Sequence record: OZ035771.1
Origin: Phapecoctavirus DIJ07P2
DNA: 64,000 nucleotides
Direction: 5' to 3' (one strand)
Made by a program: the position numbers and the translations under genes. Under the pieces are notes generated by a model. That model saw nothing but the letters and a program-made list of their open reading frames with translations. It was not told the DNA's origin and ran no database searches. Numbering within the stretch: the stretch's first letter is position 1; the number at the start of each line of letters is the position of its first letter. This document shows, piece after piece, positions 39,458-63,052 of the stretch.

Positions 39458-39489
39458 CAGCGTTCAACCTCATACACTTGAAACAAACC

Positions 39490-40422: not shown

Positions 40423-40438
40423 TATTATCTCCTCTATA

Positions 40439-40831: not shown

Positions 40832-40876
40832 TGAATGCTATCCTATCATAAAATGTTTAATATTGTCAAGCTTTAA

Positions 40877-41470: not shown

Positions 41471-41681
41471 TGATACGCTCCACAGTTACTTTTACAACAT
41501 CGTCCATATTAATCTCATCCCCCAAGACCTCAATAACACCTTCCTCATAAAGTCTAGCACATTCTTCCCACACTTCAGCTTCCGTCATTCCACCTGCAAT
41601 CTTATTTGCAAGACCTTTAATAACATCTTCATTTTGTTCATCAACAAGAATTGAAACATTAAAGCTCACTAATTTACGCAT
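41463..41681 (-). CDS. hypothetical small acidic protein
   Basis: 72 aa ORF, overlaps downstream gene start by 8 nt. Confidence 0.3.
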   Translation of the reverse strand: MRKLVSFNVSILVDEQNEDVIKGLANKIAGGMTEAEVWEECARLYEEGVIEVLGDEINMDDVVKVTVERIND

Positions 41682-41858
41682 TGTTTTCTCCTTATACTTC
41701 TAAACGGAAAGTTTCTTTAGATACAAAATCGTATCCACCTTTTTCAAGCCAATCATTGTAAACCTCATCGGCTTGAGACTCTATCATAAAATACCGAGTG
41801 GTAACTTCGTCTCCGACAATACGCACAATTTTATAGCAAATCATGATACCATTTCCCA

Positions 41859-42050
41859 TTAATCTTCCTCCAGATCAATTTCATTATAACAATGTATACA
41901 GAAACCATCATTGTGCATATGTTGTTCATAAGACATATCTTTACCACAAGACCAACAACGGATATCCCCATCGTCCCATTCACGTTCTTCTTCGCCTTCA
42001 AATTCATCTGGTAGGTAAGGCATACCAAAATAATCTAAATCGTAACTCAT
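41859..42050 (-). CDS. small zinc-ribbon protein
   Basis: Start at internal ATG with AGGAG RBS (MSYDLDYFGMPYLP...); CWSCG...CIHCY pairs of cysteines; acidic tail. Confidence 0.3.
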   Translation of the reverse strand: MSYDLDYFGMPYLPDEFEGEEEREWDDGDIRCWSCGKDMSYEQHMHNDGFCIHCYNEIDLEED

Positions 42051-50032: not shown

Positions 50033-50666
50033 TTTTAATATCTTCTAAAGACGCTTTATATTCTTCCCAGTTAATGCCAATAGCAGCTTCTTTCTCTTCT
50101 TTTGTCAGATTAGCAAAAGGCATAGGATTGTTTCCAAAAACATCGTCTGGGTGGATATAAGCCATGATACGAAGTGGACAAGGTATTGCCTGAATACCCT
50201 GATTCAAACCAGCAGCTTTCAAACGGTGTACCCATTCAGCATCTTCAAAACCATAACCGTGAGTGTAAGGGCGGAAATAACCCATCTTCTCAACAACGGC
50301 ACGAGAATACATTGCAAATTGACACATTGCAAGTTCCCAGAGAATAACTTCTCCTTTACTCCCAACAACTTTATCTTTGAAATACTCCGGCATACCAAAG
50401 AAATCCCATCCTCCAGAGACAGCTTGATCTACAAAATATGTTTCCCATCCCTCCATGATTGGGTAGCAATCGTCGTCAAAAATAAACCAATAATCATAAC
50501 CTTCTTCATAAAACTGGTGCATAAGTTCATTCCTGGCGTAAGCTACACCTTTACGATCTGGATCGTTGAATACTCGAAAATCTGCATGTGGATCTGTTAC
50601 AAGATAGTCTTTAAGTGGACGGACACCTACAGTGATAACACCCACTCCGATTTTAATATTTTCCAT
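49983..50666 (-). CDS. GT-A-like glycosyltransferase
   Basis: 227 aa; DxD-type motif FIFDDDCYP and downstream GYGFEDAEW acidic motif typical of GT-A fold enzymes. Confidence 0.4.
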   Translation of the reverse strand: MENIKIGVGVITVGVRPLKDYLVTDPHADFRVFNDPDRKGVAYARNELMHQFYEEGYDYWFIFDDDCYPIMEGWETYFVDQAVSGGWDFFGMPEYFKDKVVGSKGEVILWELAMCQFAMYSRAVVEKMGYFRPYTHGYGFEDAEWVHRLKAAGLNQGIQAIPCPLRIMAYIHPDDVFGNNPMPFANLTKEEKEAAIGINWEEYKASLEDIKNGKIRISYEEALAHVK

Positions 50667-50674
50667 TTTCTCTC

Positions 50675-51238
50675 CTAGATAGTTTTACTGTGATCGTGAC
50701 AGTGTAATAAATGATGTATAGACCGTTGAGGATTTGTTTGACCTAATCTGTAAATGTGAAACAGATACATTCCCCGCATCAATCCTAACCTCTTTCCTTT
50801 TTCATGTAAAGTGCGAGAGAAAATTAGGTCGAATTGGATAGATTTTTCTTCGAAAGGAATTTCATTCCACAATGATTTTCTAAAAAGCAAAAAGAAACCT
50901 GCCAGAGGTGTTCCGAAAGGAACTTCTTCAACACTCACTTTATGATATTCTCTTGCAATCTTAGCATATTCTATATGGTTTAGAATATCTGGATCATCGT
51001 TAATTTGGTTAGAGAAAAGCTGATAACCACTACCTAACCTGTTACAAGTTGCACCTATTACATCAAAAGGCGGGTTTGACATAACAAGCTCTTCAAGCAT
51101 AGATGGTTGATCAGGTAGGAGGAACATTGTATCGGTATCTCTTAAGCACACCCAACTATCATCTGGAAGAACGGCAATAGCTTCATTGATAGCCTTGCCG
51201 ATATTTCCTGTCAGATAGGGAGTAATATAATAAATCAT
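50675..51238 (-). CDS. hypothetical protein, possibly second GT-A-like enzyme
   Basis: 187 aa; CLRDTDTMFL acidic DxD-like motif; same operon as the glycosyltransferase genes. Confidence 0.3.
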   Translation of the reverse strand: MIYYITPYLTGNIGKAINEAIAVLPDDSWVCLRDTDTMFLLPDQPSMLEELVMSNPPFDVIGATCNRLGSGYQLFSNQINDDPDILNHIEYAKIAREYHKVSVEEVPFGTPLAGFFLLFRKSLWNEIPFEEKSIQFDLIFSRTLHEKGKRLGLMRGMYLFHIYRLGQTNPQRSIHHLLHCHDHSKTI

Positions 51239-51939: not shown

Positions 51940-52461
51940 TTAACTCCCCTTTGGTAGATAGAAACCATGCACTTTATCTCGATAAACAAGACGCATATCA
52001 CGTTCCCAGTGTGTCCTTATATTCCGTTTCTTGAAGTATAGAGCACCTTTAGTAACATCTAAAACAGACCGCAATTCAGGAAAATGTTTCTCTAAATAAA
52101 GTAAACGCTCCGCTATTGCTTTTGCTTCCTGCCACTTATCTTTCTCTGTCACGTTAAAAGTTTTCGCATATGAGAATTGCCCTTTCTGGAACAAGACTCC
52201 TCTAACTGTGTTAGGGAAGTAGGTATCATTTCTTCTGTTGATTACCACATTCCCAACGGCATTCATTCCTTTTTTACCCAGACCGCGACCTTCTGCGTAA
52301 ATTGCACAAGCTAATAGAATTTTATCATTATATTGCTTTGTACATTTGTGAACTACTTTAGCGGTTTTTACGTTTGCAGCTTCGGCTTTCGCCACAACAG
52401 GTGTAAATGTAAAAGCAGTTAAGGATAGTAACGCAACTGTTACAAAGTTTTTTATCAGCAA
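51940..52461 (-). CDS. secreted cell wall hydrolase (SleB/CwlJ-like Hydrolase_2 family)
   Basis: 173 aa; N-terminal signal peptide (LLSLTAFTFTPVVAKA); AIYAEGRG...GMNAVGNVVINRR...FPNTVRGVLFQKGQFS resembles SleB-type lytic transglycosylase/amidase domain. Confidence 0.5.
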   Translation of the reverse strand: MLIKNFVTVALLSLTAFTFTPVVAKAEAANVKTAKVVHKCTKQYNDKILLACAIYAEGRGLGKKGMNAVGNVVINRRNDTYFPNTVRGVLFQKGQFSYAKTFNVTEKDKWQEAKAIAERLLYLEKHFPELRSVLDVTKGALYFKKRNIRTHWERDMRLVYRDKVHGFYLPKGS

Positions 52462-52562: not shown

Positions 52563-53165
52563 TTATGGACATTCATACCATTCTTTTTTACCACCGAAGG
52601 CCATCACCACATCACAAATATCCAGACCAGCTTTACCTACACCATATGCTTTCAGCTTCCATTCCCCATCTTCACGAACCAAGGAAGCCACGTGGCAGAT
52701 TGTGTTACCAGCTACTTCAGGAGCCAGGAAGTCAAAATCCAGAATTTCCACATTACGCTCGGAGTCGAAGATTTTAAGCATACCTTCAGAAGCATGACCA
52801 AAACGTTTCAGACCTGTATCATCATCAATGGTCAGAACAAAGGCAATCTCTTGTGCATCAGGAGAGATTTTAGCCAGAGTAATATCAATCTGCTCCATGC
52901 TGCCAGTCCCATCACGAACATCGTCACCAGCGAAGGTAGAACGTTCAGGATCAAACTTGTTAGCATAGCAAACCAGATGACGTGCGGACAGCATTTCAGG
53001 ATTGCCAGCGGCATTATGACGACAAACCAGTGCACTTACATCCAGATCCAGTTTAGAATCAGATTTCCAAGAGAATTCCAGGCGCAGTTCTTTCAGAGCC
53101 GGAGCAACTTTCTTCAGGGAAATTTTTTCGCTAGAGCCTTTTTTCAGGGAAATTTTATCAGTCAT
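52563..53165 (-). CDS. terD: TerD-family protein
   Basis: 200 aa; N-terminal duplicated KISLKK motif and overall TerD-like size and acidic pattern (FAGDDVRDGTGS, TIDDDTG); strongly host-optimal codon usage. Confidence 0.75.
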   Translation of the reverse strand: MTDKISLKKGSSEKISLKKVAPALKELRLEFSWKSDSKLDLDVSALVCRHNAAGNPEMLSARHLVCYANKFDPERSTFAGDDVRDGTGSMEQIDITLAKISPDAQEIAFVLTIDDDTGLKRFGHASEGMLKIFDSERNVEILDFDFLAPEVAGNTICHVASLVREDGEWKLKAYGVGKAGLDICDVVMAFGGKKEWYECP

Positions 53166-53180
53166 CTTTTGTCTCCTCTA

Positions 53181-53450
53181 TTATTTAAGTGTAATACCAG
53201 TTACAGTCAATTCTACTTCCAAAAGCTTAGATGTGTTTTGGATTGATACTAATTGTGCATGATGGTTTAGTTCTACAGCAGAATAATCATTTTCCCCATC
53301 ATCTACTTTTAAATAAACAATGATTTCACTAAGGTCTAAACCATTTTCGTCAAATGCATTTTCATAGACGAAAGTATCTCCTACATCCAAATCTTTAATG
53401 GTAAGGCATCGTTTATTTACTTTTTGCTCATCAATTTCGAAGTTTAACAC
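53181..53450 (-). CDS. small protein, paralog B of a duplicated family
   Basis: 89 aa; MLNFEIDEQK...DLDVGDTFVYENAFDENGLD...EVELTVTGITLK aligns with the protein at 54472..54750. Confidence 0.4.
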   Translation of the reverse strand: MLNFEIDEQKVNKRCLTIKDLDVGDTFVYENAFDENGLDLSEIIVYLKVDDGENDYSAVELNHHAQLVSIQNTSKLLEVELTVTGITLK

Positions 53451-53679
53451 TTCTTCCTCCTAATGTTATCTCCGGTTTGTATATACGAAGAATTATAGCA
53501 TTTTCATTTTCTTTGTCAACCCATTCTTCATAATCGGGCCATACATGAATCTCTACTCTACTTACAATATCTTCCATTCGCACAGTCCCAATGAAATACT
53601 CTTTGAGACTGCGCATAATGAAAGCTTCTCTCTCGCGCCAATAATTTTCTACGACTTGAGAGGCAAGCTCGTCGATCAT
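53431..53679 (-). CDS. hypothetical protein
   Basis: 82 aa ORF overlapping neighbours at both ends (translational coupling). Confidence 0.3.
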   Translation of the reverse strand: MIDELASQVVENYWREREAFIMRSLKEYFIGTVRMEDIVSRVEIHVWPDYEEWVDKENENAIILRIYKPEITLGGRSVKLRN

Positions 53680-54470
53680 TTTTTAGCACCTACTTTAACA
53701 ACCCACTCTCCGAACTCTTCAGATAAGAGTTTGTCATAAAGCTCTGAATCTGTCAAGTCTAAATCTTTAATGCCAATAAAACCAACATTATCATAAGCAT
53801 TTGCCAGTTCTTTCAGGAAGCCAAACTTCTCATTACCAACGCCAACCATGAACCAATAAATAGGTTTATTCTTATTCTCTTCAATAAGACGACGAACAGC
53901 ACTAGGATCACCATTCTCACCATCCGTCTGGAAGAATACAACACCAGGGGTAACGTCAGCACCTGGTTCAGATACAGCTACAACTTTTTCACGCTCTACA
54001 GACACTGTTTCAGTTTTACCAAGCAGACGATTAAAGAAGCCTTTCTTTGGAGCCTCCTCTTGTACCACTTGTTTAGTGGTAATATATTTGGTAACAGTGC
54101 CAAAATACTCATCGTAGATATCTGCCATTACAGGGGCGTAATTTGTTCCACCTCCGATACGAACATTGCGCATACATTTACCAACATAGTCATCGTAAAC
54201 GTCTGCTGTTGCTGGAGTAAGCTCTTGGGAACTCGTATTGAAGGCCCACATATCAATTTGTTGATTATCGTCGAACAGCATACCAAAAGGAAGCAGTTTA
54301 CCTACAAAATCACTCACTACCCCACTAGAATATAGGCCATGCATACTACCAGAAATATCTAGAGCACATGCTACACGAAGAACAATCTTACCTTCATTCA
54401 GGTTCTTATTCTTTTTCAGAGAGAAAGCAAGGTTTTCTTGACGTTTTTTCAGGCTGATTTTCTCGGACAT
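53676..54470 (-). CDS. vWA-domain protein with TerD-like N-terminus (TerY-like)
   Basis: 264 aa; N-terminal MSEKISLKK...FSLKK; MIDAS motif VACALDISGSM with downstream T and D residues (GGGTNY, FFQTDGENGD). Confidence 0.65.
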   Translation of the reverse strand: MSEKISLKKRQENLAFSLKKNKNLNEGKIVLRVACALDISGSMHGLYSSGVVSDFVGKLLPFGMLFDDNQQIDMWAFNTSSQELTPATADVYDDYVGKCMRNVRIGGGTNYAPVMADIYDEYFGTVTKYITTKQVVQEEAPKKGFFNRLLGKTETVSVEREKVVAVSEPGADVTPGVVFFQTDGENGDPSAVRRLIEENKNKPIYWFMVGVGNEKFGFLKELANAYDNVGFIGIKDLDLTDSELYDKLLSEEFGEWVVKVGAKK

Positions 54471-54471
54471 A

Positions 54472-54750
54472 TTATTTCTCCTTCTTAAGTGTAATATTGG
54501 TAACTTCTAAATCTACTTCCACCATATTTGTATCTGGCGGGATGCAATGAGTATAGCCTCGTTGTGCTAGTGATCCATTAATACAGATCGCACTGTTTGT
54601 GGAATTTTTAATGAACACCAAGTTACGGTAGGTATCCAACCCTGCGTCTTCATAGGCATCATAATACATGAATGTGTCCCCTATGCCAAGGTCTTCGAAA
54701 GCAATAGGTAAATCCTGACACTTTTCTTCTTGAATATTGAATCTAAACAC
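54472..54750 (-). CDS. small protein, paralog A of the duplicated family
   Basis: GTG start 5 nt after AGGAGG gives MFRFNIQEEK...DLGIGDTFMYYDAYEDAGLD...EVDLEVTNITLKKEK, collinear with 53181..53450. Confidence 0.4.
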   Translation of the reverse strand: MFRFNIQEEKCQDLPIAFEDLGIGDTFMYYDAYEDAGLDTYRNLVFIKNSTNSAICINGSLAQRGYTHCIPPDTNMVEVDLEVTNITLKKEK

Positions 54751-55306
54751 GCATACCTCCTCTACCAATTTTGAAGCCCAAATCGTAAGCTTCCTTAGTG
54801 ATCTTTTGTAACTCACTTATAGAAAGTGTTACAAGAGGATCATCTTCTTCAATTTCCATCTTGTCATCTTCTGTTTCAATGAGAGTATTATGCACTTTGT
54901 GATAAGGGTTGTCAACACGTTTAAACTTATTCTTTTCTGTGCTGAAAAAACAATCTGGATCTTCTTCACCATCACCCCAACCTTGGTTAGGATCTCCGTC
55001 AGATTGTTCTGTAGGGATTTCACCTGTAAAGTACTTTTCCAGCACCATAGCGATACCGTCTCTTGGATTTGAGGAATGCATTAAATCACAAACCTTACCC
55101 CAATCCATAGCCCATTCGAACCGTTCACGAACGCCATTTTCATCCTCCTTTCCAGAGAAAACACAACCATAACTATCATAGTTGCCATACATCTCTTCAA
55201 TAACAACACCATCCTTCAAAAGAAAGAGATAGCAAGGTGATCCGTCGAAAGAAGTAGAAAGGGCAGCTTTGCCCGATTCCTTACACAAAAAGCTAAAACA
55301 ACCCAT
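54743..55306 (-). CDS. hypothetical acidic protein
   Basis: 187 aa ORF; stop overlaps next start. Confidence 0.3.
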   Translation of the reverse strand: MGCFSFLCKESGKAALSTSFDGSPCYLFLLKDGVVIEEMYGNYDSYGCVFSGKEDENGVRERFEWAMDWGKVCDLMHSSNPRDGIAMVLEKYFTGEIPTEQSDGDPNQGWGDGEEDPDCFFSTEKNKFKRVDNPYHKVHNTLIETEDDKMEIEEDDPLVTLSISELQKITKEAYDLGFKIGRGGMRV

Positions 55307-55503
55307 TACAAACCCTCCTTCAGATTATCAAGAGCTATAGTGGTTTCACAAAAGTCTCCATACGCTTTATGATGTTCTAGAAAAGCTTCAGGTCCACCCC
55401 AATCATTATCTTGTGTATTCCAACCATCAATAAAAGCATCTTCAATGATTGTGATCAGTTCCTGTCGAGTCAACGTAATGGTATCAGGTTTTGGATTATG
55501 CAT
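55306..55503 (-). CDS. hypothetical small protein
   Basis: 65 aa ORF; start overlaps upstream stop (ATGCATAA). Confidence 0.25.
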   Translation of the reverse strand: MHNPKPDTITLTRQELITIIEDAFIDGWNTQDNDWGGPEAFLEHHKAYGDFCETTIALDNLKEGL

Positions 55504-55669
55504 CTTCTTCCTCCTCTAAAATACGAAACCCATAGTTACAATAGTCCTGAAAGGTTTCGTGTGCAAGATCTTCTATATCCTCTTGAGACATATCATCTTC
55601 AATTTCGATATCCACAACCTCATTGCATCCACACCAAGCAGTTTCAATATTCACTCGTAAAGTTTTCAT
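55496..55669 (-). CDS. hypothetical small acidic protein (57 aa)
   Basis: ORF below the track size cutoff; start overlaps upstream stop (ATGA), end overlaps next start; fits the chain of coupled small genes. Confidence 0.2.
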   Translation of the reverse strand: MKTLRVNIETAWCGCNEVVDIEIEDDMSQEDIEDLAHETFQDYCNYGFRILEEEEDA

Positions 55670-55872
55670 TCTTCTTCCTCATTAAATTCCACATCAGAAA
55701 TAACTTTAAATCTACCAAAGTTACGACAACCTTCATAGATATATCCATCACGACAAGCTGCAAAAATATCTGGAGTTTGTAGCTGGGTCATTGGGGCAAA
55801 GCGTTTCTCTTCGTCATAACGAACACCTATTTCTCCAGCTTGTTCGTCAAGCATGTATACACGGATTCTCAT
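55666..55872 (-). CDS. hypothetical small protein
   Basis: 68 aa ORF; start overlaps upstream stop. Confidence 0.25.
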   Translation of the reverse strand: MRIRVYMLDEQAGEIGVRYDEEKRFAPMTQLQTPDIFAACRDGYIYEGCRNFGRFKVISDVEFNEEEE

Positions 55873-56981
55873 TTACCCAACCCCTTCTTAACAGCGTCAA
55901 CCATCCCATCTTCGAGAGATTGAACTTCATTGATATAATCAACACGGGCAGCACGGGCTTCCGTATTGATGCGGTTAGTTTCTTCCAACATCTTAACCAA
56001 GTTTTCCTGATCGTGACGCAGAGTTTCAATATCCAACACTTGACGGTTAGCCAGTGCTGCTGCTTCGATCTGATTCTGTGTGGCAAGATCGCTACCCAGT
56101 TTAATTGCCAGGTTAAATTCATCAAGAACGTTATTCTGTGTCTCTGCGGCTTTCATTTGACGTAAGCTCTCAATATACATTGAGAAGTTAGCAGAGTAAG
56201 CAGGAATAACATTATTTACTATGTTACGCGCAGATCGCATTAAGCTTGCAGAAACTTTTTGCATACCTTGCACACGTGGTCCCATTTGGACACACAGTAG
56301 GCGCAATGCTTTTAAATCCGCAATACGAATCTCCAGAAGATCCAAAGTATCTCGGATCGCTTGTCGCTGTTCTACCGCATCTTCTGGAAGAGCAGCCAAA
56401 GCTTGTTCTTCTTTTTCATAGGTTGCTGTTAGAAGCTGCATATCTCGGTTCAAACTTGCAGCATATTGTCCAATAGCTTGATGTAGCTTTTCAAGATATA
56501 CCAAGGAATCTTCTTCTTTGCGAATATCCATTTGAAGGTTCTTTACCAACTCTTCAATACGGTTATTAACATTATCAAACTCCCCAAACAGGTCTTCTTT
56601 CATACCCATAACTTTTTTAATGAGTTTAGTAATACCTTTGCTTTGTTTAATAGAGTTTGGATCAAGTTGTTTTGCCTGTTTAATCAAAGCTGTGAGTCGT
56701 TCACTCATCTGATCGCCTTGATTACTACGTTGATGTTTTAATACCTCGGCATTCAAGGAACGCAAGGTTGTTCCTGCCTCTGCCCCGATCTCTTCGATCT
56801 CTTGTCGTGTCATAGAAGGTAAAACTGGAACTTCTTGCGGTGCCGCTGGTGCATAAACAGGACTGGCATCTAACACGCTTGGAGCGAATACAGATTTACT
56901 TGCATCTGTTGTTGCAGCAAATACGCTCATTTCAGGTTTCTTCTGACAGCCAGTAGCTGCTTTTAAAAATGGACTTGTCAT
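55869..56981 (-). CDS. TelA-like (toxic anion resistance family) alpha-helical protein
   Basis: 370 aa, predominantly helical/coiled-coil, size and genomic association with TerD/TerC consistent with TelA-type proteins; family assignment from memory, not searched. Confidence 0.4.
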   Translation of the reverse strand: MTSPFLKAATGCQKKPEMSVFAATTDASKSVFAPSVLDASPVYAPAAPQEVPVLPSMTRQEIEEIGAEAGTTLRSLNAEVLKHQRSNQGDQMSERLTALIKQAKQLDPNSIKQSKGITKLIKKVMGMKEDLFGEFDNVNNRIEELVKNLQMDIRKEEDSLVYLEKLHQAIGQYAASLNRDMQLLTATYEKEEQALAALPEDAVEQRQAIRDTLDLLEIRIADLKALRLLCVQMGPRVQGMQKVSASLMRSARNIVNNVIPAYSANFSMYIESLRQMKAAETQNNVLDEFNLAIKLGSDLATQNQIEAAALANRQVLDIETLRHDQENLVKMLEETNRINTEARAARVDYINEVQSLEDGMVDAVKKGLGK

Positions 56982-57568
56982 TCTTCATTCTCCTCTTCTG
57001 CATCTCTTATATATGGTGAAACACCGTACTCTTTAGCTACTTTAACCCAATCGTCCCATTTATACAACCATAATTTTCCTTCGGTCCCTTCTTTATCTGA
57101 TTTCAACCACATATTAGGTTGCTTACCTGGGTACATGCGATTAGGTTTACGATTATAACCTCTAACACATCTTGTCGCAAACCTATCTACCAGAACAAGA
57201 ACATATTTATATTCGTGGTTCAACGGCTCTTTGGAAGTGGCTTTAGGATTAGCCCCTAACTCTGCTGCCAGTTTTTGCCAATGAGCACCGTGTCTACTAA
57301 ACTTACCCATACAACCATCAATAGCATGAGCAATTTCGTGCTTCATTGTATCCACGATCATATCTCTTGTAGAGTTCTTATGCAAGTGCCAATTTACAAC
57401 AACAATTTTATCTCGGTAATTGCACCAACCAAAAGAGTTATTCACTTTGTTTCTAACGCAAGCTTTATATCCTGCTTCACGTAACATGTTGTAGTAAACA
57501 GGAAAATCTTCTTTTATTTCCTGCATCACTTCCCACCACAAGAGTTGCAAGTCTCTCTCGGTATGCAT
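56978..57568 (-). CDS. SprT-like zinc metallopeptidase
   Basis: 196 aa; HEIAHAIDG (HExxH) zinc-binding motif in a SprT-like context; basic C-terminal region. Confidence 0.45.
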   Translation of the reverse strand: MHTERDLQLLWWEVMQEIKEDFPVYYNMLREAGYKACVRNKVNNSFGWCNYRDKIVVVNWHLHKNSTRDMIVDTMKHEIAHAIDGCMGKFSRHGAHWQKLAAELGANPKATSKEPLNHEYKYVLVLVDRFATRCVRGYNRKPNRMYPGKQPNMWLKSDKEGTEGKLWLYKWDDWVKVAKEYGVSPYIRDAEEENEE

Positions 57569-57571
57569 AAC

Positions 57572-58165
57572 TTACACCTTAAAAGTGAAATGCGTGGTCG
57601 TGGCTTCAAAATCAGGACCAGATAAACGTGCACTGAAATCTGAAATATTTGTAATTAAAAAGCTTTTATGCATACCTAACACAGCCACGCTTTCAATATC
57701 TTCTACTAACATTTCAATCATGTTAGAAACATGGCTGAACGTAGGGTTTTGTTTTTTGATGGTGTAGAAAGAAAGATTCCCACCTGCTGTATAAGATACC
57801 TCTTCAAAATCTTTAATCGTATATTGTGTGCCATCAGTAAAGAAAATGGTAGCTTTATTAGTAGCACGTTTCTTGTTTTTTGGTCCTTTTTTACGTTTAC
57901 TGCGAGTAGGCAAACCGTTTGGGAACACCATAGCTACAAATTCTTCAGGAGAAACCTCCTTACCGAAATCATAACCATAAGAAACAGCGTCTATAAACTC
58001 GTCGTCTTCATTTTTAAAATAATGAAAATAGGGCCAATTTGAGAGATTATCGAGCATCTTATGCTCATCCACAGCAGAGAACGTATCCCTCAAAGCACGT
58101 GTGATTTGCAAAGCATTAGGCAAACTTTTAACACCTGTAATGGAAGTACGAATAGAAATTGTCAT
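57572..58165 (-). CDS. hypothetical protein
   Basis: 197 aa ORF; basic KRKKGPKNKKR segment. Confidence 0.3.
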   Translation of the reverse strand: MTISIRTSITGVKSLPNALQITRALRDTFSAVDEHKMLDNLSNWPYFHYFKNEDDEFIDAVSYGYDFGKEVSPEEFVAMVFPNGLPTRSKRKKGPKNKKRATNKATIFFTDGTQYTIKDFEEVSYTAGGNLSFYTIKKQNPTFSHVSNMIEMLVEDIESVAVLGMHKSFLITNISDFSARLSGPDFEATTTHFTFKV

Positions 58166-58179
58166 TGTTTTTCTCCTTA

Positions 58180-58617
58180 TTAACGTCGCTTGCTACGAGA
58201 TGAACTCTTTTTACTTAAAGGGCTATTGTAAGATTTACGAGTTGTATAGCTACTATTTGTTTTAAAAGTTTGTCTCGGCTTTTCATAAGTTTTTGTCTCT
58301 TGTTTAGGCTTACCATAAAAATTAGTTTTCGGTTTAGGTGTATTATAATGCTTATTAATAATCGTTCTGTTATCGTTATAATCCCCGCCACTACGATTAC
58401 TACCACCGCTCATCATATGCCCTAACAACATACCTGTAGCAAACTCACCAACACCGCTACTACTAGAACCGCCACCATTGTTGATAATAGTTGTATCTCC
58501 ATCAGATCCTTGTTGGGCGTATTGTTGAGGAGGTTGTTGGTATTGTGCAGGATTTGTTTCATCCTCGCAAGCTGTTAAAAAGATACAACCAATTAAAATC
58601 AGGGCTAGTTTTTTCAT
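58180..58617 (-). CDS. Gly-rich basic lipoprotein
   Basis: Start at internal ATG after GAGGA RBS; signal peptide MKKLALILIGCIFLTAC with lipobox; Q/G/S-rich then K/R-rich C-terminus. Confidence 0.4.
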   Translation of the reverse strand: MKKLALILIGCIFLTACEDETNPAQYQQPPQQYAQQGSDGDTTIINNGGGSSSSGVGEFATGMLLGHMMSGGSNRSGGDYNDNRTIINKHYNTPKPKTNFYGKPKQETKTYEKPRQTFKTNSSYTTRKSYNSPLSKKSSSRSKRR

Positions 58618-58804
58618 ATTTGCTTTCCTCATTTTGACTATTAATACATCTGTGTTTGAAATCTCCAGAGAAGCAATAAATTTGCTCTCCATCTCGGTAT
58701 AAACTCACTTTACTGCCGTTGATTACGCTTGTCAATACAAAAATTACAACAAACAACCCTATTGCAAAACAGATATTTTCAAACACAACCAACAAGTATT
58801 TCAT
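58559..58804 (-). CDS. small membrane protein (uncertain; overlaps lipoprotein gene start)
   Basis: 81 aa with N-terminal TM helix ICFAIGLFVVIFVLTSVI; overlaps 58180..58617 by about 58 nt. Confidence 0.2.
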   Translation of the reverse strand: MKYLLVVFENICFAIGLFVVIFVLTSVINGSKVSLYRDGEQIYCFSGDFKHRCINSQNEESKYEKTSPDFNWLYLFNSLRG

Positions 58805-59151
58805 TTTAAAAATACCTCATCATCAGTTTCATTATCCCAGAAGAACAAATCCCAACCATTTGGATCGTTCCATTTGGCTGCTGGAGAAGTCCATATTTGC
58901 TCGATATCAATATTCAAAACTTCACCGTTTCGTTTTGAAACAGCTTTAGTTAATTCCCAACGGGATACAGGCTCCACTTCCCCTGAACCACTCCCACAAC
59001 AAGCTACCACATTAGGAGGCAAATTAATTGGATCTTTGGTCACGATCATAACGCTTACCCCAGGGTAAACTTTTGAAAGATAATCTAAAACGTAATCCAC
59101 ATCACCAGATAAATCCCAAACAAGTTCTTGAATTTCATCAAAATTATTCAT
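58801..59151 (-). CDS. hypothetical acidic protein
   Basis: 116 aa ORF, first gene downstream of terC terminator. Confidence 0.3.
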   Translation of the reverse strand: MNNFDEIQELVWDLSGDVDYVLDYLSKVYPGVSVMIVTKDPINLPPNVVACCGSGSGEVEPVSRWELTKAVSKRNGEVLNIDIEQIWTSPAAKWNDPNGWDLFFWDNETDDEVFLK

Positions 59152-59159
59152 AAGTCTCT

Positions 59160-59186
59160 CCTATAAAATAGCCTCCCGAAGGAGGC
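59160..59186 (-). terminator. rho-independent terminator downstream of terC
   Basis: GCCTCC-CGAA-GGAGGC hairpin; on minus strand followed by TATTTTATAG. Confidence 0.55.
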
Positions 59187-59193
59187 TCATCTA

Positions 59194-60168
59194 TTAAACA
59201 GCAGCTTCTTCTTTTTCAGGGAAGATAAAGCTTGCAATAACACCAAGAGCTAATGTGCCTAGAACAATCATCAGACTTACGTTAGGGGAAATATCATGCG
59301 GGAGGAATGACCACTTGGCATGAAGTGTTTCACCGAACGGGTGATACATAAGTTTAGCACCGACAAACACCAGAACCACAGCAACAGCTTTCTCTAAGTG
59401 AACCAGATATTTCACAGCTACACTTAACACAAAGAAAAGTGCACGTAAACCAAGAACAGCCATCAACATTGCAGAATAAACTAGCAGAGGTTCTTGTGTC
59501 ACACCGATCACAGCCGGAACTGAATCAAAAGAGAAGACAATATCTGTAAGCTCAATTACAAACACACAAAGAAGAGCAGGAGTTGCATATTTAATACCAT
59601 TCTTAATGGTAATGAACTTTTCACCATCCAGTGCATTGTGCACAGGCAGAACTTTACCTACTAAACGAACAGCCCAATGCTTAGAGTAATCAATATCCTC
59701 TTCTTCGTCACCACCTTTGATGATAGCCACGGCAGACCAAGCTACAATCAAACCGAACAACACTTGGACCGACCAATGAAGGTTAAACAAAGCGGTCCCT
59801 GCTGCAACAAAAATACCTCGGAAGACAATGGCTCCTGCAATCCCCCAAAGTAGAATCTTATGTTGGAGATGTGTGCTCTTAATTCCAAAGCTTGCAAAAA
59901 TTGCCATGAACACCATTAGGTTATCTACAGAAAGACTCTTTTCCAACACATAGCCACTTAGGAAAAGCGCGGCAAACTCTTTACCATGTTCTACCCAAAT
60001 GAATGCGTAATACCCTAAAGCTAAAGCAATCCAAAAAACAGACCAAAGCAAAGCAGATTTAATTCCAATTTCTTTATTCTCTTTATGACCAAAGAAATCG
60101 ATACCAATAGACAATGCTAAAATACCAACTAAAACAACTACATCAATAATTGGGAAACCGAGTTGCAT
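59194..60168 (-). CDS. terC: TerC-family integral membrane protein
   Basis: 324 aa; multiple TM helices; signature YVLEKSLSVDNLMVF and second DxxFxxDSVPA-type segment (DIVFSFDSVPAVIG) typical of TerC family. Confidence 0.8.
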   Translation of the reverse strand: MQLGFPIIDVVVLVGILALSIGIDFFGHKENKEIGIKSALLWSVFWIALALGYYAFIWVEHGKEFAALFLSGYVLEKSLSVDNLMVFMAIFASFGIKSTHLQHKILLWGIAGAIVFRGIFVAAGTALFNLHWSVQVLFGLIVAWSAVAIIKGGDEEEDIDYSKHWAVRLVGKVLPVHNALDGEKFITIKNGIKYATPALLCVFVIELTDIVFSFDSVPAVIGVTQEPLLVYSAMLMAVLGLRALFFVLSVAVKYLVHLEKAVAVVLVFVGAKLMYHPFGETLHAKWSFLPHDISPNVSLMIVLGTLALGVIASFIFPEKEEAAV

Positions 60169-60185
60169 TCTTTTCTCCTCTCTTT

Positions 60186-60244
60186 GCGGGGAACTATTCC
60201 CCGCTTCATGTGATATATCTTACTCTTTTTAAGAACTATGTCAA
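60186..60244 (-). promoter_or_regulatory. terC promoter (TTGACA-16-TAAGAT) with leader hairpin
   Basis: On minus strand TTGACA (plus 60239-60244), 16 bp spacer, TAAGAT; transcript leader contains GCGGGGAA-TAG-TTCCCCGC hairpin about 12 nt upstream of GAGGAG RBS. Confidence 0.4.
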
Positions 60245-60247
60245 CAC

Positions 60248-60469
60248 TTATTTTGTTGAATGAGAGGAAAAGATTCCTCGTAATACCGCCAAAATAAACG
60301 AAACACAAACCACGGTCCAGAAGGTTACTGGGACAGTGATATCTGCATGACCCATAACTTCAGCAACATAGTTGTAAGCCAGCAACAGTAACCAAGCTGG
60401 AATCAAACTAAGCATAAAAGCAATAACAAAAAAGCTTACCACTGCAACAATACCTGCAAAAACACCCAT
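60248..60469 (-). CDS. small membrane protein (2 TM helices)
   Basis: 73 aa, almost entirely hydrophobic (VAVVSFFVIAFMLSLIPAWLLLLAY; TFWTVVCVSFILAVL). Confidence 0.35.
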   Translation of the reverse strand: MGVFAGIVAVVSFFVIAFMLSLIPAWLLLLAYNYVAEVMGHADITVPVTFWTVVCVSFILAVLRGIFSSHSTK

Positions 60470-60481
60470 ACTAATCTCCTC

Positions 60482-60955
60482 TTAAAGTTTATAAATAGTC
60501 ACATCGTGACCTGTTTTTACTAAAGTTTCTTCAATCATCACTTGGATGATAGCCCAATTACCTCCGGCATGTCCCGCTCCAATCATAGGTAAACCGATCT
60601 TACATTTTTGGTCACGGAGAAGCAAATCATTAGCCATAGCTATTAGTGCATCGTAAAGTGCATCATAGTCCAACTGACGACCTTTACTATTGTATCCATA
60701 ACGATACTGTCCATAAAGGTTGTATACCATAGGGTTAGGATAATCTTCTGGTTCCCCTAAACTAAAAGAACCAAGCTTTTTCTGGTTTCCTGCTCCTGTA
60801 GCTAAATCTGCTTCGTATGCATATGGAAACGCATATTTTATTTGTGGGGCAATACCTGCCCCCATATTACACATACAGTTGCAACAATGAGCAATAACAG
60901 TTACTTCACCTGCTTTAGCGGCATCAATAAGATTACCTGTTTTCATTTTAAGCAT
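60482..60955 (-). CDS. macro domain protein (TARG1/OARD1-like ADP-ribose hydrolase fold)
   Basis: Start at ATG after AAGGAG (MLKMKTGN...); VIAHCCNCMCNMGAGIA and GLPMIGAGHAGGNW...DVTIYKL parallel the TARG1-type macro pattern (HCIS.DC.MGAGIA ... RIGCGLD ... ITVYTL). Confidence 0.6.
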   Translation of the reverse strand: MLKMKTGNLIDAAKAGEVTVIAHCCNCMCNMGAGIAPQIKYAFPYAYEADLATGAGNQKKLGSFSLGEPEDYPNPMVYNLYGQYRYGYNSKGRQLDYDALYDALIAMANDLLLRDQKCKIGLPMIGAGHAGGNWAIIQVMIEETLVKTGHDVTIYKL

Positions 60956-60968
60956 TTTTAGCTCCTTA

Positions 60969-61796
60969 TTACAGAATGTGTTGTTTTGTGTAACGATCCA
61001 AGAATTCAAAGTTTTCAGCATACTTTGAAATTCGGTTGTAACCTTCTCCCAAGCATCCAAAGAAAAGTTGCTCTACATAGTAGTGTGGCAATTGACTAAG
61101 AATGATTTTGAAGTCTTCATGATTTTGGCCCATAAGATATTTAATAGGACGAACAAGACACTGTGCATCACGTTCTTCATTAATCATTTTAACAAACGCT
61201 TCTGGTGTATTAATGTAGTTAAAATTCAGTTTAGCTTCGGTATCTGCTTGATTACCTTCATATTTTGCAAAATACAGGAAGTAAACATCATTTTTAACTT
61301 GATTTTCATCAAGGATCTCAATCAGTTTGTCTTCATGCGTTCCAGTGATATTTACATCATCAATGAATACAAGCTTCTTATCACCCCAGAATTCTTTGTT
61401 ACAGTAGAATGTATCCCCATCAATAAGTTTCTTACGACTAGCTTTATCCAAGAAGCCATAATCGTTAATATAGCTAACTTTACGATGAATAATATCCAGT
61501 TCTGCTGAACGACCTTGATTATATTGTGATTGCAACATGTTAAAGTAATTAATAAAATGATCTGTCATCATTGTTGCAGCATTATGCACATGGTTGTAAG
61601 GAGAAGGAATGATAACAAATTGTTCCCCAATATGTTTCATTGCCACTTGAGCAAAAAACTGAAGTGCCAATTCTTTACCCATACGACGCGCGGCTTGGTT
61701 ACTACCAAATTTCAATTTTGAATAATCTTGGATATCAAAAGTAGCAGTTTCCAGGTCATCAAATTTATTTGCAAAAATTTGAGTTTGATTACGCAT
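60969..61796 (-). CDS. type I phosphoribosyltransferase (PRTase)
   Basis: 275 aa; PRPP-binding loop KLVFIDDVNITGTHEDKL (hydrophobic-DD-hydrophobic-TGxT); start overlaps HAD gene stop. Confidence 0.55.
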   Translation of the reverse strand: MRNQTQIFANKFDDLETATFDIQDYSKLKFGSNQAARRMGKELALQFFAQVAMKHIGEQFVIIPSPYNHVHNAATMMTDHFINYFNMLQSQYNQGRSAELDIIHRKVSYINDYGFLDKASRKKLIDGDTFYCNKEFWGDKKLVFIDDVNITGTHEDKLIEILDENQVKNDVYFLYFAKYEGNQADTEAKLNFNYINTPEAFVKMINEERDAQCLVRPIKYLMGQNHEDFKIILSQLPHYYVEQLFFGCLGEGYNRISKYAENFEFLDRYTKQHIL

Positions 61797-62445
61797 TTAC
61801 AATTTCTCCTCTTTTAAGTTTCTCTAGTAAGTCGTTAGGGTTCTTAATATGACAGAAGTTAAATCCTAAGTCAACACATTTTCCATCATATTCTTCACTA
61901 TCGCCTACGTGCAATACTTCGTGCCCTAACAGAGGGATCGGAGAATATGTGAGCGTGCGAGCAAAGAATCGCGGATCTGGTTTACAAAGTAAAGCTTCAT
62001 CCGAGAAATGGGTGAACTCAAAACAATTCCAACTATCAAACTTACAAGCACGACGCAGGATATCCCCTGATATAAAGTTGGTATTGCTCTTAATACTCAA
62101 ATCATAACGTCCCGAAAGATACAGCAAGTACATCGGCAGATCCACGGCTACGTGTGGTGGAAACTTAAGGAACCACTGTTCACACTCGAAACGAAGCTTT
62201 GCAGACTTCCAAGGTGTTATCCCAAGTTCAGAACCAAGTCTTTCCCAGGCGTATGCTGCACACTCGGCTTTGCCTTGAAGTGCTGCATTATCCAGTTCCT
62301 TTTTGATCTTCTTATAAGCTGCTCTTGCTTCCACTTCCGTAATATCTCCATATTTTGCGATAGTCCAGGCTCGCATGTCTGCGTAATTGGAGTTTGCTGT
62401 GATCAGTGTGTTCCATACATCAAAAGAGATATGTTTAATAGTCAT
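61789..62445 (-). CDS. HAD-superfamily hydrolase (atypical motif I)
   Basis: 218 aa; motif I ISFDVWNTL (second Asp replaced), motif III CKPDPRFF, motif IV LHVGDSEEYD. Confidence 0.55.
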   Translation of the reverse strand: MTIKHISFDVWNTLITANSNYADMRAWTIAKYGDITEVEARAAYKKIKKELDNAALQGKAECAAYAWERLGSELGITPWKSAKLRFECEQWFLKFPPHVAVDLPMYLLYLSGRYDLSIKSNTNFISGDILRRACKFDSWNCFEFTHFSDEALLCKPDPRFFARTLTYSPIPLLGHEVLHVGDSEEYDGKCVDLGFNFCHIKNPNDLLEKLKRGEIVNA

Positions 62446-62446
62446 A

Positions 62447-63052
62447 TTAAGCCCACCATGCGTCTAAGTTAAGATTACTGTCCACTACCACTTGTTCTAT
62501 GTGGTAGCCTTTTATCTGTATCCCACTGTTCAAGAGCATATCATACGCTTCATTGAAACGCAACTTATCTTCTGCGGAATATAAGCGAGCATTATAAAAT
62601 CGGTAATCAATTTCTTCAGCATTAGAAGAAATACGGAAGAAGTTTGTTTCTACTTCGGGATCACTTGCTGAAGTCTTAATGTGAACTTCTCCATAATTTT
62701 CTTTACTTAGATCCATGAAAAGAACACAGGCAACATGTTTAAACATTCGTTCCAGTTTGTAACGAACAACATTGAAACCTGCATTCTCAAGTTTTTCTAC
62801 ACACTGCAACATTAAAGTAGTGTCGAGATCGCTTTGATACTTTGTTAACATACGATCACGTTGAGACTTTGTATCCCGATGTAAATCAATTGTTGTGCAT
62901 TTGGCACCAATAATCTTAGCTGCTTTCATCAACTCTTCAGAACTAACGTTAGATAAAGTAAGATGAAAATGGGCTTTCCACACTTTTTTAGCAGGGACAC
63001 CAAAAGATTTATCCCCATTATTCGGCATGTTGACTACTACACTATGTTGCAT
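62447..63052 (-). CDS. hypothetical protein; weak resemblance to 2H phosphoesterase (HxT motif)
   Basis: 201 aa; AHFHLTLSN contains an H-x-T-x motif but the second motif is not convincing. Confidence 0.25.
   Translation of the reverse strand: MQHSVVVNMPNNGDKSFGVPAKKVWKAHFHLTLSNVSSEELMKAAKIIGAKCTTIDLHRDTKSQRDRMLTKYQSDLDTTLMLQCVEKLENAGFNVVRYKLERMFKHVACVLFMDLSKENYGEVHIKTSASDPEVETNFFRISSNAEEIDYRFYNARLYSAEDKLRFNEAYDMLLNSGIQIKGYHIEQVVVDSNLNLDAWWA

What the first reader, a model, noticed from the sequence alone, without database searches (positions are those of the whole stretch)
52563..63052. Ter (tellurite-resistance-like) stress gene neighbourhood embedded in a phage auxiliary module
One minus-strand gene array contains a TerD-family protein, a vWA protein with intact MIDAS motif and TerD-like N-terminus, a TerC-family membrane protein, a TelA-like helical protein, a SprT-like HExxH peptidase, a type I PRTase, a HAD hydrolase and a macro domain. 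In bacteria this combination forms Ter-type stress-response and phage-inhibition loci, and its biochemical output is still unresolved. Finding the near-complete set inside a phage, next to its replisome and nrdDG genes, suggests the phage uses it as a host-takeover, superinfection-exclusion or counter-defence module, which I do not recognise as a characterised phage system.
Basis: partly seen in the sequence, partly recalled or inferred. Interest (0 to 1): 0.85.

Follow-up and report, generated by a model that had tools for sequence, protein, structure and literature searches.

The report
Known Ter gene module in coliphage
The window comes from a phAPEC8-like E. coli phage, and the flagged block is a real tellurite-resistance-like (Ter) gene set, but it is present in every close relative, was noted in print years ago with the same guessed role, and still has no tested function.

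Summary
On the minus strand of 52563-63052, profile searches find TerD, a TerF-type vWA protein with an intact MIDAS, TelA, an Alx-type TerC, a SprT-like peptidase, a PRTase_3 enzyme, a HAD hydrolase and a macrodomain.

The window is a Phapecoctavirus. Sixty-two phage records carry at least 80% of the block, nearly all at 95-97.5% identity. Relatives in Justusliebigvirus and in a Klebsiella phage keep a conserved core.

A six-gene set (TelA, vWA-TerF, TerC or DUF475, HAD, PRTase_3, TerD) also recurs in unrelated large phage contigs. The SprT gene, the macrodomain and the 201-aa gene are lineage-specific additions.

The set is not near-complete. It lacks TerB, extra TerD paralogues, an ATP-grasp enzyme and a lyase.

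It is not new. The phage ZCKP1 paper (2018) and the jumbo-phage survey of Iyer et al. (2021) describe phage Ter genes, the latter including PRTase and HAD, and propose superinfection exclusion or colicin resistance. No paper found reports an experiment.

My best reading is an early-expressed module that protects the inner membrane and ion balance, using a small nucleoside-like product. Gene identity is about 0.95 certain; the mechanism about 0.35. Novelty: already known. Interest is low to moderate.

The parts
62447..63052 (-). 201-aa protein of unknown function; lineage-specific, first gene after the nrdG-side 74-aa ORF
61789..62445 (-). HAD-superfamily hydrolase with a non-canonical motif I (DVWNT); overlaps the PRTase start by 8 nt
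   Evidence: Pfam Hydrolase E 4e-4, below the gathering score. NCBIfam HAD-IA partial hits. D9, W11, N12, T13, S120, N121, K155, P156, G181, D182 and D187 are invariant in eight phage lineages.
60969..61796 (-). PRTase_3 (ComF-like type I phosphoribosyltransferase)
   Evidence: Pfam PF15610 E 9e-42. The DDVxITGTH loop is invariant. The only solved relative is a weak HGPRT match at the PRPP-binding loop, E 0.11. Always follows the HAD gene.
60482..60955 (-). Macrodomain of the TARG1/DarG/SCO6735 type; an accessory gene, not part of the conserved Ter set
   Evidence: Pfam Macro E 4.8e-5. PDB 5e3b E 7e-13 and DarG 5m31 E 1.6e-6. PADLOC DarG E 2e-10. No match in the Klebsiella 05F01 locus.
60248..60469 (-). 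73-aa protein with two hydrophobic segments
   Evidence: Hydropathy scan. Conserved in Justusliebigvirus.
60217..60244 (-). Sigma-70-like promoter (TTGACA-16-TAAGAT) just upstream of TerC
   Evidence: sequence read. Annotated as a promoter in phage ASO2A. Equivalent sites lie upstream of TerC in L002 and of DUF475 in L004.
59194..60168 (-). TerC/Alx-family integral membrane protein (about 9 hydrophobic segments)
   Evidence: Pfam TerC E 3e-40. TIGR03718 319 bits, above the 246-bit cutoff. EKSLSVDN and DIVFSFDSVP motifs read in the sequence. Hydropathy scan.
59170..59187 (-). Intrinsic-terminator-like hairpin (AGCCTCC-TTCG-GGAGGCT, then a T-rich tail) directly after TerC
   Evidence: Annotated as a terminator in ASO2A. 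A terminator also follows DUF475 in L004.
58801..59151 (-). 116-aa acidic protein, unknown function
   Evidence: No Pfam family.
58559..58804 (-). 81-aa protein with one hydrophobic segment
   Evidence: Conserved in Justusliebigvirus.
58180..58692 (-). Probable lipoprotein (MKKLALILIGCIFLTAC lipobox, then a Gly/Ser-rich and basic tail)
   Evidence: Sequence. Hydrophobic N-terminal segment. Conserved at 27-35% identity in L002 and L004.
57572..58165 (-). 197-aa protein, unknown function
   Evidence: No Pfam family. Partly conserved in L002 and L004.
56978..57568 (-). SprT-like zinc metallopeptidase (HEIAH, followed by HGAHW); accessory gene
   Evidence: Pfam SprT-like E 4e-9. Present in L004, absent from L002.
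55869..56981 (-). TelA-family helical protein
   Evidence: Pfam TelA E 1.7e-33. Matches PHROG 5890. AF2 model shows long helical hairpins, pLDDT 74. tblastn finds it in 223 phage records.
55306..55872 (-). Three small acidic ORFs (68, 57 and 65 aa)
   Evidence: The 65-aa ORF is conserved in L002 and L004.
54743..55306 (-). 187-aa acidic protein, unknown function
   Evidence: No Pfam family. 76% identical in Justusliebigvirus.
54887..54915 (-). Sigma-70-like promoter (TTGACA-17-CATAAT, 11 of 12 matches)
   Evidence: An equivalent site lies at L002 18791-18819.
54472..54816 (-). Small protein, paralogue of the 89-aa ORF, immediately upstream of the vWA gene
   Evidence: BLASTP 31% identity, E 2e-13. 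Conserved in L002 and L004.
53676..54470 (-). vWA-TerF-like protein with an intact MIDAS
   Evidence: Pfam PF10138 E 1.6e-37. D38, S40, S42, T109 and D183 are invariant.
53431..53679 (-). 82-aa ORF that contains the promoter-like site below
53492..53519 (-). Perfect sigma-70 consensus (TTGACA-16-TATAAT, with an upstream TG)
53181..53450 (-). 89-aa paralogue of the 114-aa ORF, immediately upstream of TerD
52563..53165 (-). TerD-domain protein with a partly degenerate calcium-binding loop
   Evidence: Pfam TerD E 3e-28. PDB 2KXT E 1.5e-15. The loop reads GDDVRDG--TGSME where other phages have GDNRTGxGxGDDE.
51940..52461 (-). SleB-type cell-wall hydrolase with a signal-like N-terminus. It lies outside the finding's coordinates but is syntenic with TerD in all three genera.
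   Evidence: Pfam Hydrolase_2 E 1.9e-17. Synteny. A Hydrolase_2 gene also sits next to TelA in L015.

Best explanation
Identity (about 0.95 certain). The block is the Stephanstirmvirinae version of a recurrent phage-borne Ter module. Its conserved set is TelA, a TerF-type vWA protein, a TerC or DUF475 membrane protein, a translationally coupled HAD plus PRTase_3 pair, and TerD. Lineage-specific genes are interleaved: a lipoprotein, small paralogous ORFs, a SprT-like peptidase, a DarG-type macrodomain and a 201-aa protein.

Mechanism (inferred, about 0.35). The genes are transcribed by host RNA polymerase from several sigma-70-type promoters, so they would be expressed early in infection. PRTase_3 joins an unknown base to PRPP. 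The adjacent HAD enzyme processes the resulting nucleotide into a nucleoside-like small molecule. That molecule, together with divalent cations, is read by the TerD and vWA(MIDAS) proteins. These act with peripheral TelA and integral TerC at the inner membrane. The result keeps membrane integrity and Ca2+/Mn2+ balance stable during the latent period. This would block DNA entry by superinfecting phages and damage from pore-forming colicins, which are the phenotypes of the plasmid ter operon.

Shown here: gene identities, intact motifs, synteny and recurrence. Inferred: the small molecule, expression timing, membrane action and phenotype.
For: Catalytic and binding motifs are intact and invariant:
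- MIDAS residues of the vWA protein.
- PRPP-binding loop of PRTase_3.
- HAD motifs.

The six genes recur as a tight cluster in independent phage contigs.
- L014, L016 and L017 read TelA, vWA-TerF, TerC, HAD, PRTase_3, TerD.
- L010 and L015 also hold several of them together.

The core is kept across three genera at 40-80% protein identity.

HAD and PRTase_3 genes overlap or abut in every lineage examined.

The block is rich in envelope proteins: TerC, two small proteins with hydrophobic segments, a probable lipoprotein and a signal-bearing hydrolase.

Near-consensus sigma-70 promoters lie on the coding strand before TerC, before the 114-aa ORF plus vWA, and before the 89-aa ORF plus TerD. Counterparts exist in L002 and L004.

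The same hypothesis is published in PMC7824862 and PMC6141743. Those papers cite work on plasmid R478 for the ter-operon phenotypes of phage inhibition and colicin resistance.
Against: - None of the papers found reports an experiment on any phage Ter gene.
- TerB, which is proposed as a ligand sensor, is absent.
- The TerD calcium-binding loop has lost three acidic residues and two positions in this subfamily.
- The HAD enzyme has Trp in place of the general-acid Asp, so a simple phosphatase step is uncertain.
- Total promoter counts do not exceed those in shuffled sequence.
- HAD-PRTase_3 also occurs with no Ter genes in the stretch examined.
- The TelA fold search gave only generic helical-bundle matches.
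Confidence: 0.45

Rival explanations
1. Metal-handling module. The Alx-type TerC exports Mn2+, or hands metal to proteins crossing the Sec translocon. TerD and the vWA protein buffer Ca2+ or Mg2+. Together they adjust the infected cell's metal balance for phage enzymes or for exported phage proteins.
For: - TerC is in the Alx subfamily and scores above the curated cutoff.
- TerC proteins metalate exoenzymes during Sec export (PMC10550928).
- A Sec-signal-bearing hydrolase is syntenic with the block.
- The MIDAS is intact.
- TerC has its own promoter and terminator, like a self-contained accessory gene.
Against: - Nothing in the window reaches an Rfam gathering score, so no Mn riboswitch accompanies the gene.
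- This reading does not explain the tight linkage to TelA and HAD-PRTase_3.
- To my knowledge Hydrolase_2 enzymes are not metal-dependent.
- The TerD calcium-binding loop is degenerate here.
Confidence: 0.2
2. The block is not one system. It would be two or more unrelated modules placed side by side. One is a nucleotide and ADP-ribose set (201-aa protein, HAD, PRTase_3, macrodomain) belonging with the neighbouring nrdDG genes or with counter-defence. The other is a separate membrane Ter core.
For: - In Klebsiella phage 05F01 the HAD-PRTase pair lies on the other side of nrdDG from the Ter core.
- The pair occurs with no Ter genes in the stretch examined in Xanthomonas XaC1, Rhizobium TM61 and T4-like contigs. 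Its neighbours there include RNA ligase, NUDIX, an NMN adenylyltransferase-like gene and a macrodomain gene.
- In Brevundimonas phage Kabachok the pair lies about 37 kb from TelA.
- Pseudomonas phiPsa374 is described with terC, terD, terF and telA only, and only one Pseudomonas record, PsgM04F, appears among the listed PRTase_3 hits.
- The macrodomain is of the DarG type, and DarG-like antitoxin mimics are a published phage counter-defence.
- In 05F01 a PARP-like gene lies downstream of the HAD-PRTase pair.
Against: - In L014, L016 and L017 the HAD-PRTase_3 pair sits directly between TerC and TerD.
- L010 also joins the pair to Ter genes.
- Where Ter genes are absent, a DUF2828/DUF7788 protein with weak vWA similarity sits next to the pair, so a link to vWA-type proteins may persist.
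- By my recollection PF15610 was defined from Ter neighbourhoods; I did not check this.
Confidence: 0.2
3. Lysis-timing insulation. The Ter core keeps the membrane energised so that a pre-exported SleB-type hydrolase is not released early.
For: - A Hydrolase_2 gene with a signal-like N-terminus lies directly after TerD in three genera.
- A Hydrolase_2 gene also lies next to TelA in the unrelated contig L015.
Against: - A terminator is annotated between TerD and the hydrolase in phage ASO2A.
- The adjacency may be synteny without function.
- L014, L016 and L017 have no Hydrolase_2 gene in the cluster.
- The export route of the hydrolase is untested.
Confidence: 0.1
4. Benefit to the host. The genes would give the infected or pseudolysogenic cell resistance to tellurite or other xenobiotics.
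For: - Gene names and PHROG labels say 'tellurite resistance'.
- Iyer et al. mention possible xenobiotic resistance during pseudolysogeny.
Against: - Published descriptions treat these as lytic phages.
- TerB and the TerZ, TerA and TerE paralogues are absent.
- The phiPsa374 authors judge an incomplete set unlikely to confer tellurium resistance.
Confidence: 0.05

Closest known systems
Ter gene clusters already noted in the same phage subfamily (phAPEC8, ZCKP1, phi92/Justusliebigvirus, BASEL phage Bas62 and relatives)
   Same: The block is 95-97.5% identical in almost all of the 62 phage records that carry at least 80% of it. The ordered core is the same in Justusliebigvirus. The genes are already annotated as TerC, TelA-like and tellurite resistance and are discussed in PMC6141743 and PMC11162368.
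   Different: Nothing of substance. This window is one more member of the group.
Phage Ter systems described by Iyer, Anantharaman, Krishnan, Burroughs and Aravind 2021 (Acinetobacter phage ME3; Caulobacter jumbo phages)
   Same: The component classes match: PRTase and HAD for biosynthesis, TerD, TerC, TerF-type vWA and TelA. The proposed role, superinfection exclusion, is also the same.
   Different: This phage is about 150 kb, so it is not a jumbo phage. It adds SprT, a DarG-type macrodomain, a lipoprotein and small paralogous ORFs. Its TerD calcium-binding loop is degenerate.
Plasmid and chromosomal terZABCDEF operon with its upstream biosynthetic genes (IncHI2 plasmid R478, E. coli O157, Klebsiella)
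   Same: It shares TerD and TerC family proteins, a TerF-type vWA domain, and the PRTase and HAD classes. TerD aligns to Klebsiella TerD (PDB 2KXT) at E 1.5e-15.
   Different: The phage has no TerB, only one TerD-domain protein where the operon has five or six, a vWA protein with no TerD domain, and no ATP-grasp enzyme or lyase. TelA belongs to a different operon in plasmids. The phage TerC gene has no detectable DNA similarity to any complete E. coli genome.
Bacillus subtilis yceCDEFGH envelope-stress operon (three TerD paralogues, MeeF/TerC, YceG, YceH/TelA)
   Same: It combines TerD, TerC and TelA in one unit. TerC is linked there to metal export at the Sec translocon. One phage record labels the TerD homologue yceD. 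The operon's composition is from my own knowledge.
   Different: As far as I know the Bacillus operon has no vWA, PRTase or HAD gene. It is under host stress sigma factors rather than phage promoters.
DarG and TARG1 macrodomains, and phage DarG-like antitoxin mimics
   Same: The macrodomain at 60482-60955 is closest to SCO6735, BT1257, DarG and TARG1. Phage-encoded DarG-like counter-defence proteins are published.
   Different: There is no DarT partner. The score is far below the DarG equivalog cutoff (37.5 against 250 bits). The catalytic residues were not checked.

Membership tests
Ter stress-response system in the sense of Anantharaman, Iyer and Aravind 2012 | At least one TerD-domain protein | tested here: met
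   Pfam TerD 98.9 bits. PDB 2KXT E 1.5e-15.
Ter stress-response system in the sense of Anantharaman, Iyer and Aravind 2012 | TerC-family membrane protein | tested here: met
   Pfam TerC 138 bits. TIGR03718 319 bits, above the 246-bit cutoff.
Ter stress-response system in the sense of Anantharaman, Iyer and Aravind 2012 | vWA protein of the TerF or TerY type with a MIDAS | tested here: met
   PF10138 130 bits. The five MIDAS residues are invariant.
Ter stress-response system in the sense of Anantharaman, Iyer and Aravind 2012 | TelA | tested here: met
   PF05816 116.6 bits.
Ter stress-response system in the sense of Anantharaman, Iyer and Aravind 2012 | Biosynthetic PRTase plus HAD phosphoesterase | tested here: met
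   PF15610 143.7 bits. The HAD motifs are conserved, but motif I is DVWNT, which lacks the general-acid Asp.
Ter stress-response system in the sense of Anantharaman, Iyer and Aravind 2012 | TerB | tested here: not met
   None of the 20 ORFs scanned hits TerB at E <= 0.01.
Ter stress-response system in the sense of Anantharaman, Iyer and Aravind 2012 | ATP-grasp enzyme and C-C bond lyase of the full biosynthetic module | tested here: not met
   No such Pfam hits in the block.
terZABCDEF operon (R478 type) | Several TerD paralogues (TerZ, A, D, E, F), with TerF being TerD fused to vWA | tested here: not met
   There is one TerD protein. The vWA protein shares only an 8-residue motif with TerD.
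terZABCDEF operon (R478 type) | Confers tellurite, pore-forming colicin and phage resistance | not testable with these tools
   This needs phenotypic assays.
TerY-P triad defence system (vWA plus PP2C phosphatase plus Ser/Thr kinase) | PP2C and kinase partners; a PADLOC model hit | tested here: not met
   The vWA protein has no PADLOC hit. There are no kinase or PP2C Pfam hits.
Recurrent phage Ter module (Iyer et al. 2021; phi92, phAPEC8, ZCKP1) | TelA, vWA-TerF, TerC, TerD and HAD-PRTase clustered in a large virulent phage | tested here: met
   Literature.
2H phosphoesterase (my own hypothesis for the 201-aa protein) | Two HxT/S motifs and a LigT/CPDase-like fold | tested here: not met
DarG antitoxin | DarG-type macrodomain with a C-terminal DarT-binding domain and an adjacent DarT gene | tested here: not met
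   Only the macrodomain aligns (model positions 2-147 of 338), at 37.5 bits against a 250-bit cutoff. There is no DarT gene in the block.

The most novel reading that the evidence does not exclude
The translationally coupled pair of a HAD enzyme with a Trp-containing motif I (DVWNT) and PRTase_3 may be a portable phage cassette. It would make a still-unidentified nucleoside-like small molecule whose receptor is a vWA-type or TerD-type protein. In the loci examined it lies either among Ter membrane genes or beside a DUF2828/DUF7788 protein with weak vWA similarity plus RNA-repair genes; in the Rhizobium and Brevundimonas loci neither partner is annotated nearby. That pattern would point to a small-molecule-to-vWA signalling route in phage-infected cells that nobody has characterised. 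A coliphage related to the BASEL collection would be a tractable place to identify it.
Probability: 0.2. Interest if true: 0.7.

Novelty: already known. Interest (0 to 1): 0.3.

Why it matters
What Ter systems actually do is a decades-old open question. The phage version is compact: six conserved genes with their own promoters, in virulent E. coli phages that grow on K-12. BASEL collection relatives such as Bas62 are available for this. That makes it a convenient place to test function by deletion and to identify the product of PRTase_3 and HAD.

This opportunity does not depend on the present window. The genes, and the superinfection-exclusion hypothesis, are already published. The window adds no new kind of system.

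Tried and rejected
- **Mn riboswitch ahead of the Alx-type TerC.** Nothing in the window reaches an Rfam gathering score. The leader is only about 50 nt and holds a small hairpin.
- **Recent capture of TerC from the host alx gene.** There is no blastn match in 5,426 complete E. coli genomes.
- **Bacterial neighbourhoods of PRTase_3.** The genome-contig scan returned only two near-identical phage-like contigs.
- **HAD-PRTase as a published NAD+ reconstitution pathway.** NARP3 is PnuC plus NadR, which is unrelated. No paper in the library mentions PF15610.
- **Nearest solved PRTase.** A profile search found only a weak match to the PRPP-binding loop of HGPRT, E 0.11.
- **Gene-essentiality data.** The HIDEN-SEQ preprint does not mention these phages or genes.
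- **Papers not held.** The Anantharaman 2012 paper and the phi92 genome paper are not in the library. Statements about them come from papers that cite them or from my own knowledge.
- **ORFs with no Pfam family.** The 187, 197, 116, 89, 114, 82, 73, 68 and 65-aa ORFs have none, even at E up to 1 for the three largest.

Full report
**What is there**

The minus strand from 63052 down to 52563 is packed with about 24 ORFs. Many of them overlap or abut. Pfam assigns eight of them:

| Coordinates | Family | Result |
|---|---|---|
| 52563-53165 | TerD | E 3e-28 |
| 53676-54470 | vWA-TerF-like | E 1.6e-37 |
| 55869-56981 | TelA | E 1.7e-33 |
| 56978-57568 | SprT-like | E 4e-9 |
| 59194-60168 | TerC | E 3e-40 |
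| 60482-61060 | Macro | E 4.8e-5, just above the gathering score |
| 60969-61796 | PRTase_3 | E 9e-42 |
| 61789-62445 | HAD | E 4e-4, below the gathering score |

- The HAD call is supported by an alignment of eight phage homologues in which motifs I-IV are invariant.
- TerC belongs to the Alx subfamily: 319 bits against a 246-bit cutoff for TIGR03718.
- TerD aligns to the solved Klebsiella TerD at E 1.5e-15.
- The five MIDAS residues of the vWA protein are invariant in eight lineages.

Two details need correction. The 'TerD-like N-terminus' of the vWA protein is only a shared SEKISLKK motif. The 201-aa first gene has no recognised family.

**Where the window comes from**

The block matches 104 phage records. 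Sixty-two of them cover at least 80% of it, almost all at 95-97.5% identity. They are phAPEC8-like E. coli myoviruses of the genus Phapecoctavirus, subfamily Stephanstirmvirinae.

Flanking genes in a near-identical record are nrdG, nrdD, another ribonucleotide reductase and a helicase on one side. On the other side are a SleB-type hydrolase, glycosyltransferases and a primase/helicase.

**What is conserved and what is not**

I ran tblastn with all window proteins against related loci.

- Justusliebigvirus (BASEL phage Bas62) and Klebsiella phage 05F01 keep HAD, PRTase_3, a probable lipoprotein, part of the 197-aa protein, TelA, a 65-aa ORF, the small 114-aa ORF, vWA, TerD and the SleB-type hydrolase, in the same order.
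- TerC is kept in Justusliebigvirus.
- In 05F01 the TerC slot holds a DUF475 protein, which also gives a weaker TerC hit. In all three genera this slot has a promoter-like site before it. A terminator-like hairpin follows it in the window and in 05F01.
- SprT is missing from Justusliebigvirus.
- The 201-aa gene was found only in Phapecoctavirus-like sequences.
- The macrodomain gave no match in 05F01. There a 208-aa protein with no Pfam match, then a WGR/PARP-like protein and a radical SAM protein, follow HAD-PRTase.
- In 05F01 the HAD-PRTase pair lies on the far side of nrdDG from the Ter core.

**Recurrence outside the subfamily**

Homologues of PRTase_3 at about 45-55% identity lie on other large phage-like contigs.

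- In L014, L016 and L017 the order is TelA, vWA-TerF, one to several ORFs without an assigned family, TerC, (two small ORFs in L017, one in L014), HAD, PRTase_3, TerD.
- L010 holds TerC, TerD, vWA-TerF, HAD and PRTase_3.
- L015 holds vWA-TerF, two TerD genes, TelA, a Hydrolase_2 gene and PRTase_3.

This establishes a recurrent six-gene phage Ter set, and clustering far beyond chance.

The HAD-PRTase_3 pair also occurs with no Ter gene in the stretch examined:

- Xanthomonas phage XaC1.
- Rhizobium phage TM61.
- T4-like contigs L011-L013, next to RNA ligase and a DUF2828/DUF7788 protein that has only weak vWA similarity.
- In Brevundimonas phage Kabachok, TelA is about 37 kb from the pair.

Conversely, Pseudomonas phiPsa374 is described as carrying terC, terD, terF and telA, and only one Pseudomonas record appears among the listed PRTase_3 hits. 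The biosynthetic pair and the membrane core are therefore linked but separable.

**Finer anatomy**

- Three strong sigma-70-type sites lie on the coding strand. A perfect consensus sits at 53519-53492, before the 89-aa ORF and TerD. An 11-of-12 site sits at 54915-54887, before the 114-aa ORF and vWA. A 10-of-12 site sits at 60244-60217, before TerC.
- Total site counts are not above those in shuffled sequence, so these are leads rather than proof.
- The 89-aa and 114-aa ORFs are paralogues (E 2e-13).
- The block encodes many envelope proteins.
- The HAD family has an invariant DVWNT motif I, with Trp where phosphatases carry the general-acid Asp.
- The TerD calcium-binding loop is degenerate in this subfamily but canonical in L016 and L017.
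- The macrodomain is of the DarG/TARG1/SCO6735 type.

**Comparison with what is known**

- The ZCKP1 paper (2018) concerns a phage whose PRTase is 99% identical. It reports four tellurite-resistance genes and proposes colicin resistance and protection against superinfection.
- Iyer et al. 2021 describe Ter systems in jumbo and 'related smaller tailed' phages, including PRTase and HAD, with the same hypothesis.
- A 2024 paper says phi92 and its relative carry ter cluster genes of unknown function.
- Similar remarks exist for phiKp34 and phiPsa374.
- Database records already label the genes.
- I found no experimental test.

Relative to bacterial ter operons, the phage set lacks TerB, extra TerD paralogues, the ATP-grasp enzyme and the lyase. 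It also shows no DNA similarity to E. coli genomes.

**Mechanism**

The most likely reading is the published one, sharpened by the anatomy above. It is an early, host-polymerase-transcribed module acting at the inner membrane. PRTase_3 and HAD supply a nucleoside-like ligand. TerD and the vWA protein bind ligand and metal. TelA and TerC act on the membrane. The outcome is exclusion of superinfecting phages and colicin damage.

I rate the gene identities at about 0.95 and the mechanism at about 0.35. The rivals are:

- a metal-handling role, supported by TerC biology;
- two unrelated modules side by side;
- insulation of lysis timing;
- host xenobiotic resistance.

**Verdict**

The finding is real, correctly read at the domain level, and overstated in completeness and novelty. 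It is an already known, still uncharacterised phage module.

Noticed in passing
window 62447-63052 (-): A 201-aa protein with no Pfam family matches two PADLOC 'AbiEi' models over their full length (E about 5e-13). Its confident AF2 model is two ferredoxin-like halves with no close solved fold. It could be a phage copy of an abortive-infection antitoxin-like protein.
   Followed up: partly
window 60482-60955 (-); L004 2354-3634: The macrodomain after PRTase_3 is of the DarG/TARG1/SCO6735 type, a class published as phage anti-DarT counter-defence. In Klebsiella phage 05F01 no macrodomain match was found; a 208-aa protein with no Pfam match, then a WGR/PARP_reg/PARP protein and a radical SAM protein, follow HAD-PRTase. 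So an ADP-ribose eraser or an ADP-ribose writer lies downstream of the pair.
   Followed up: partly
window 51940-52461 (-); L015 5940-6431: A SleB-type Hydrolase_2 cell-wall hydrolase with a signal-like N-terminus lies directly after TerD in three genera. A Hydrolase_2 gene also lies next to TelA in an unrelated phage contig.
   Followed up: partly
window 61789-62445 (-) and alignment A2: The Ter-linked phage HAD family has an invariant DVWNT motif I. Trp replaces the Asp+2 general acid of HAD phosphatases, so its chemistry may not be simple dephosphorylation.
   Followed up: partly
window 53181-53450 and 54472-54816 (-); promoters 53492-53519 and 54887-54915: Two small paralogous ORFs (31% identity) each sit behind a near-consensus sigma-70 promoter. 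One lies immediately upstream of TerD and the other upstream of the vWA gene, as if a promoter, small ORF and Ter gene unit had been duplicated.
   Followed up: partly
window 59170-60244 (-); L002 14047-15101; L004 9455-10618: The TerC gene has its own promoter-like site in all three genera. A terminator-like hairpin follows it in the window and in L004, but no coding-strand terminator was found after TerC in L002. In the Klebsiella phage the same slot holds a DUF475 protein instead of TerC.
   Followed up: yes
L003 15941-17527; L011 7152-8555; L012 10967-12562: In phages whose HAD-PRTase_3 pair has no Ter genes nearby, a roughly 470-530-aa DUF2828/DUF7788 protein with weak vWA similarity (E 0.025) lies next to or near the pair. 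RNA ligase and other RNA-repair genes are close by.
   Followed up: partly
window 52563-53165 (-), alignment A6: The TerD calcium-binding loop has lost three acidic residues and two positions in Stephanstirmvirinae. It is canonical (GDNRTGxGxGDDE) in other phage Ter modules.
   Followed up: partly
window 49046-51238 (-): Three ORFs here, plus a fourth just upstream, correspond to genes annotated as glycosyltransferases in the near-identical phage EF1-1. The ZCKP1 paper suggests related surface-modifying enzymes may also block superinfection.
   Followed up: no
window about 38000-42000: GC skew changes sign near 40 kb, which marks a switch in gene orientation between two large transcription blocks.
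   Followed up: no
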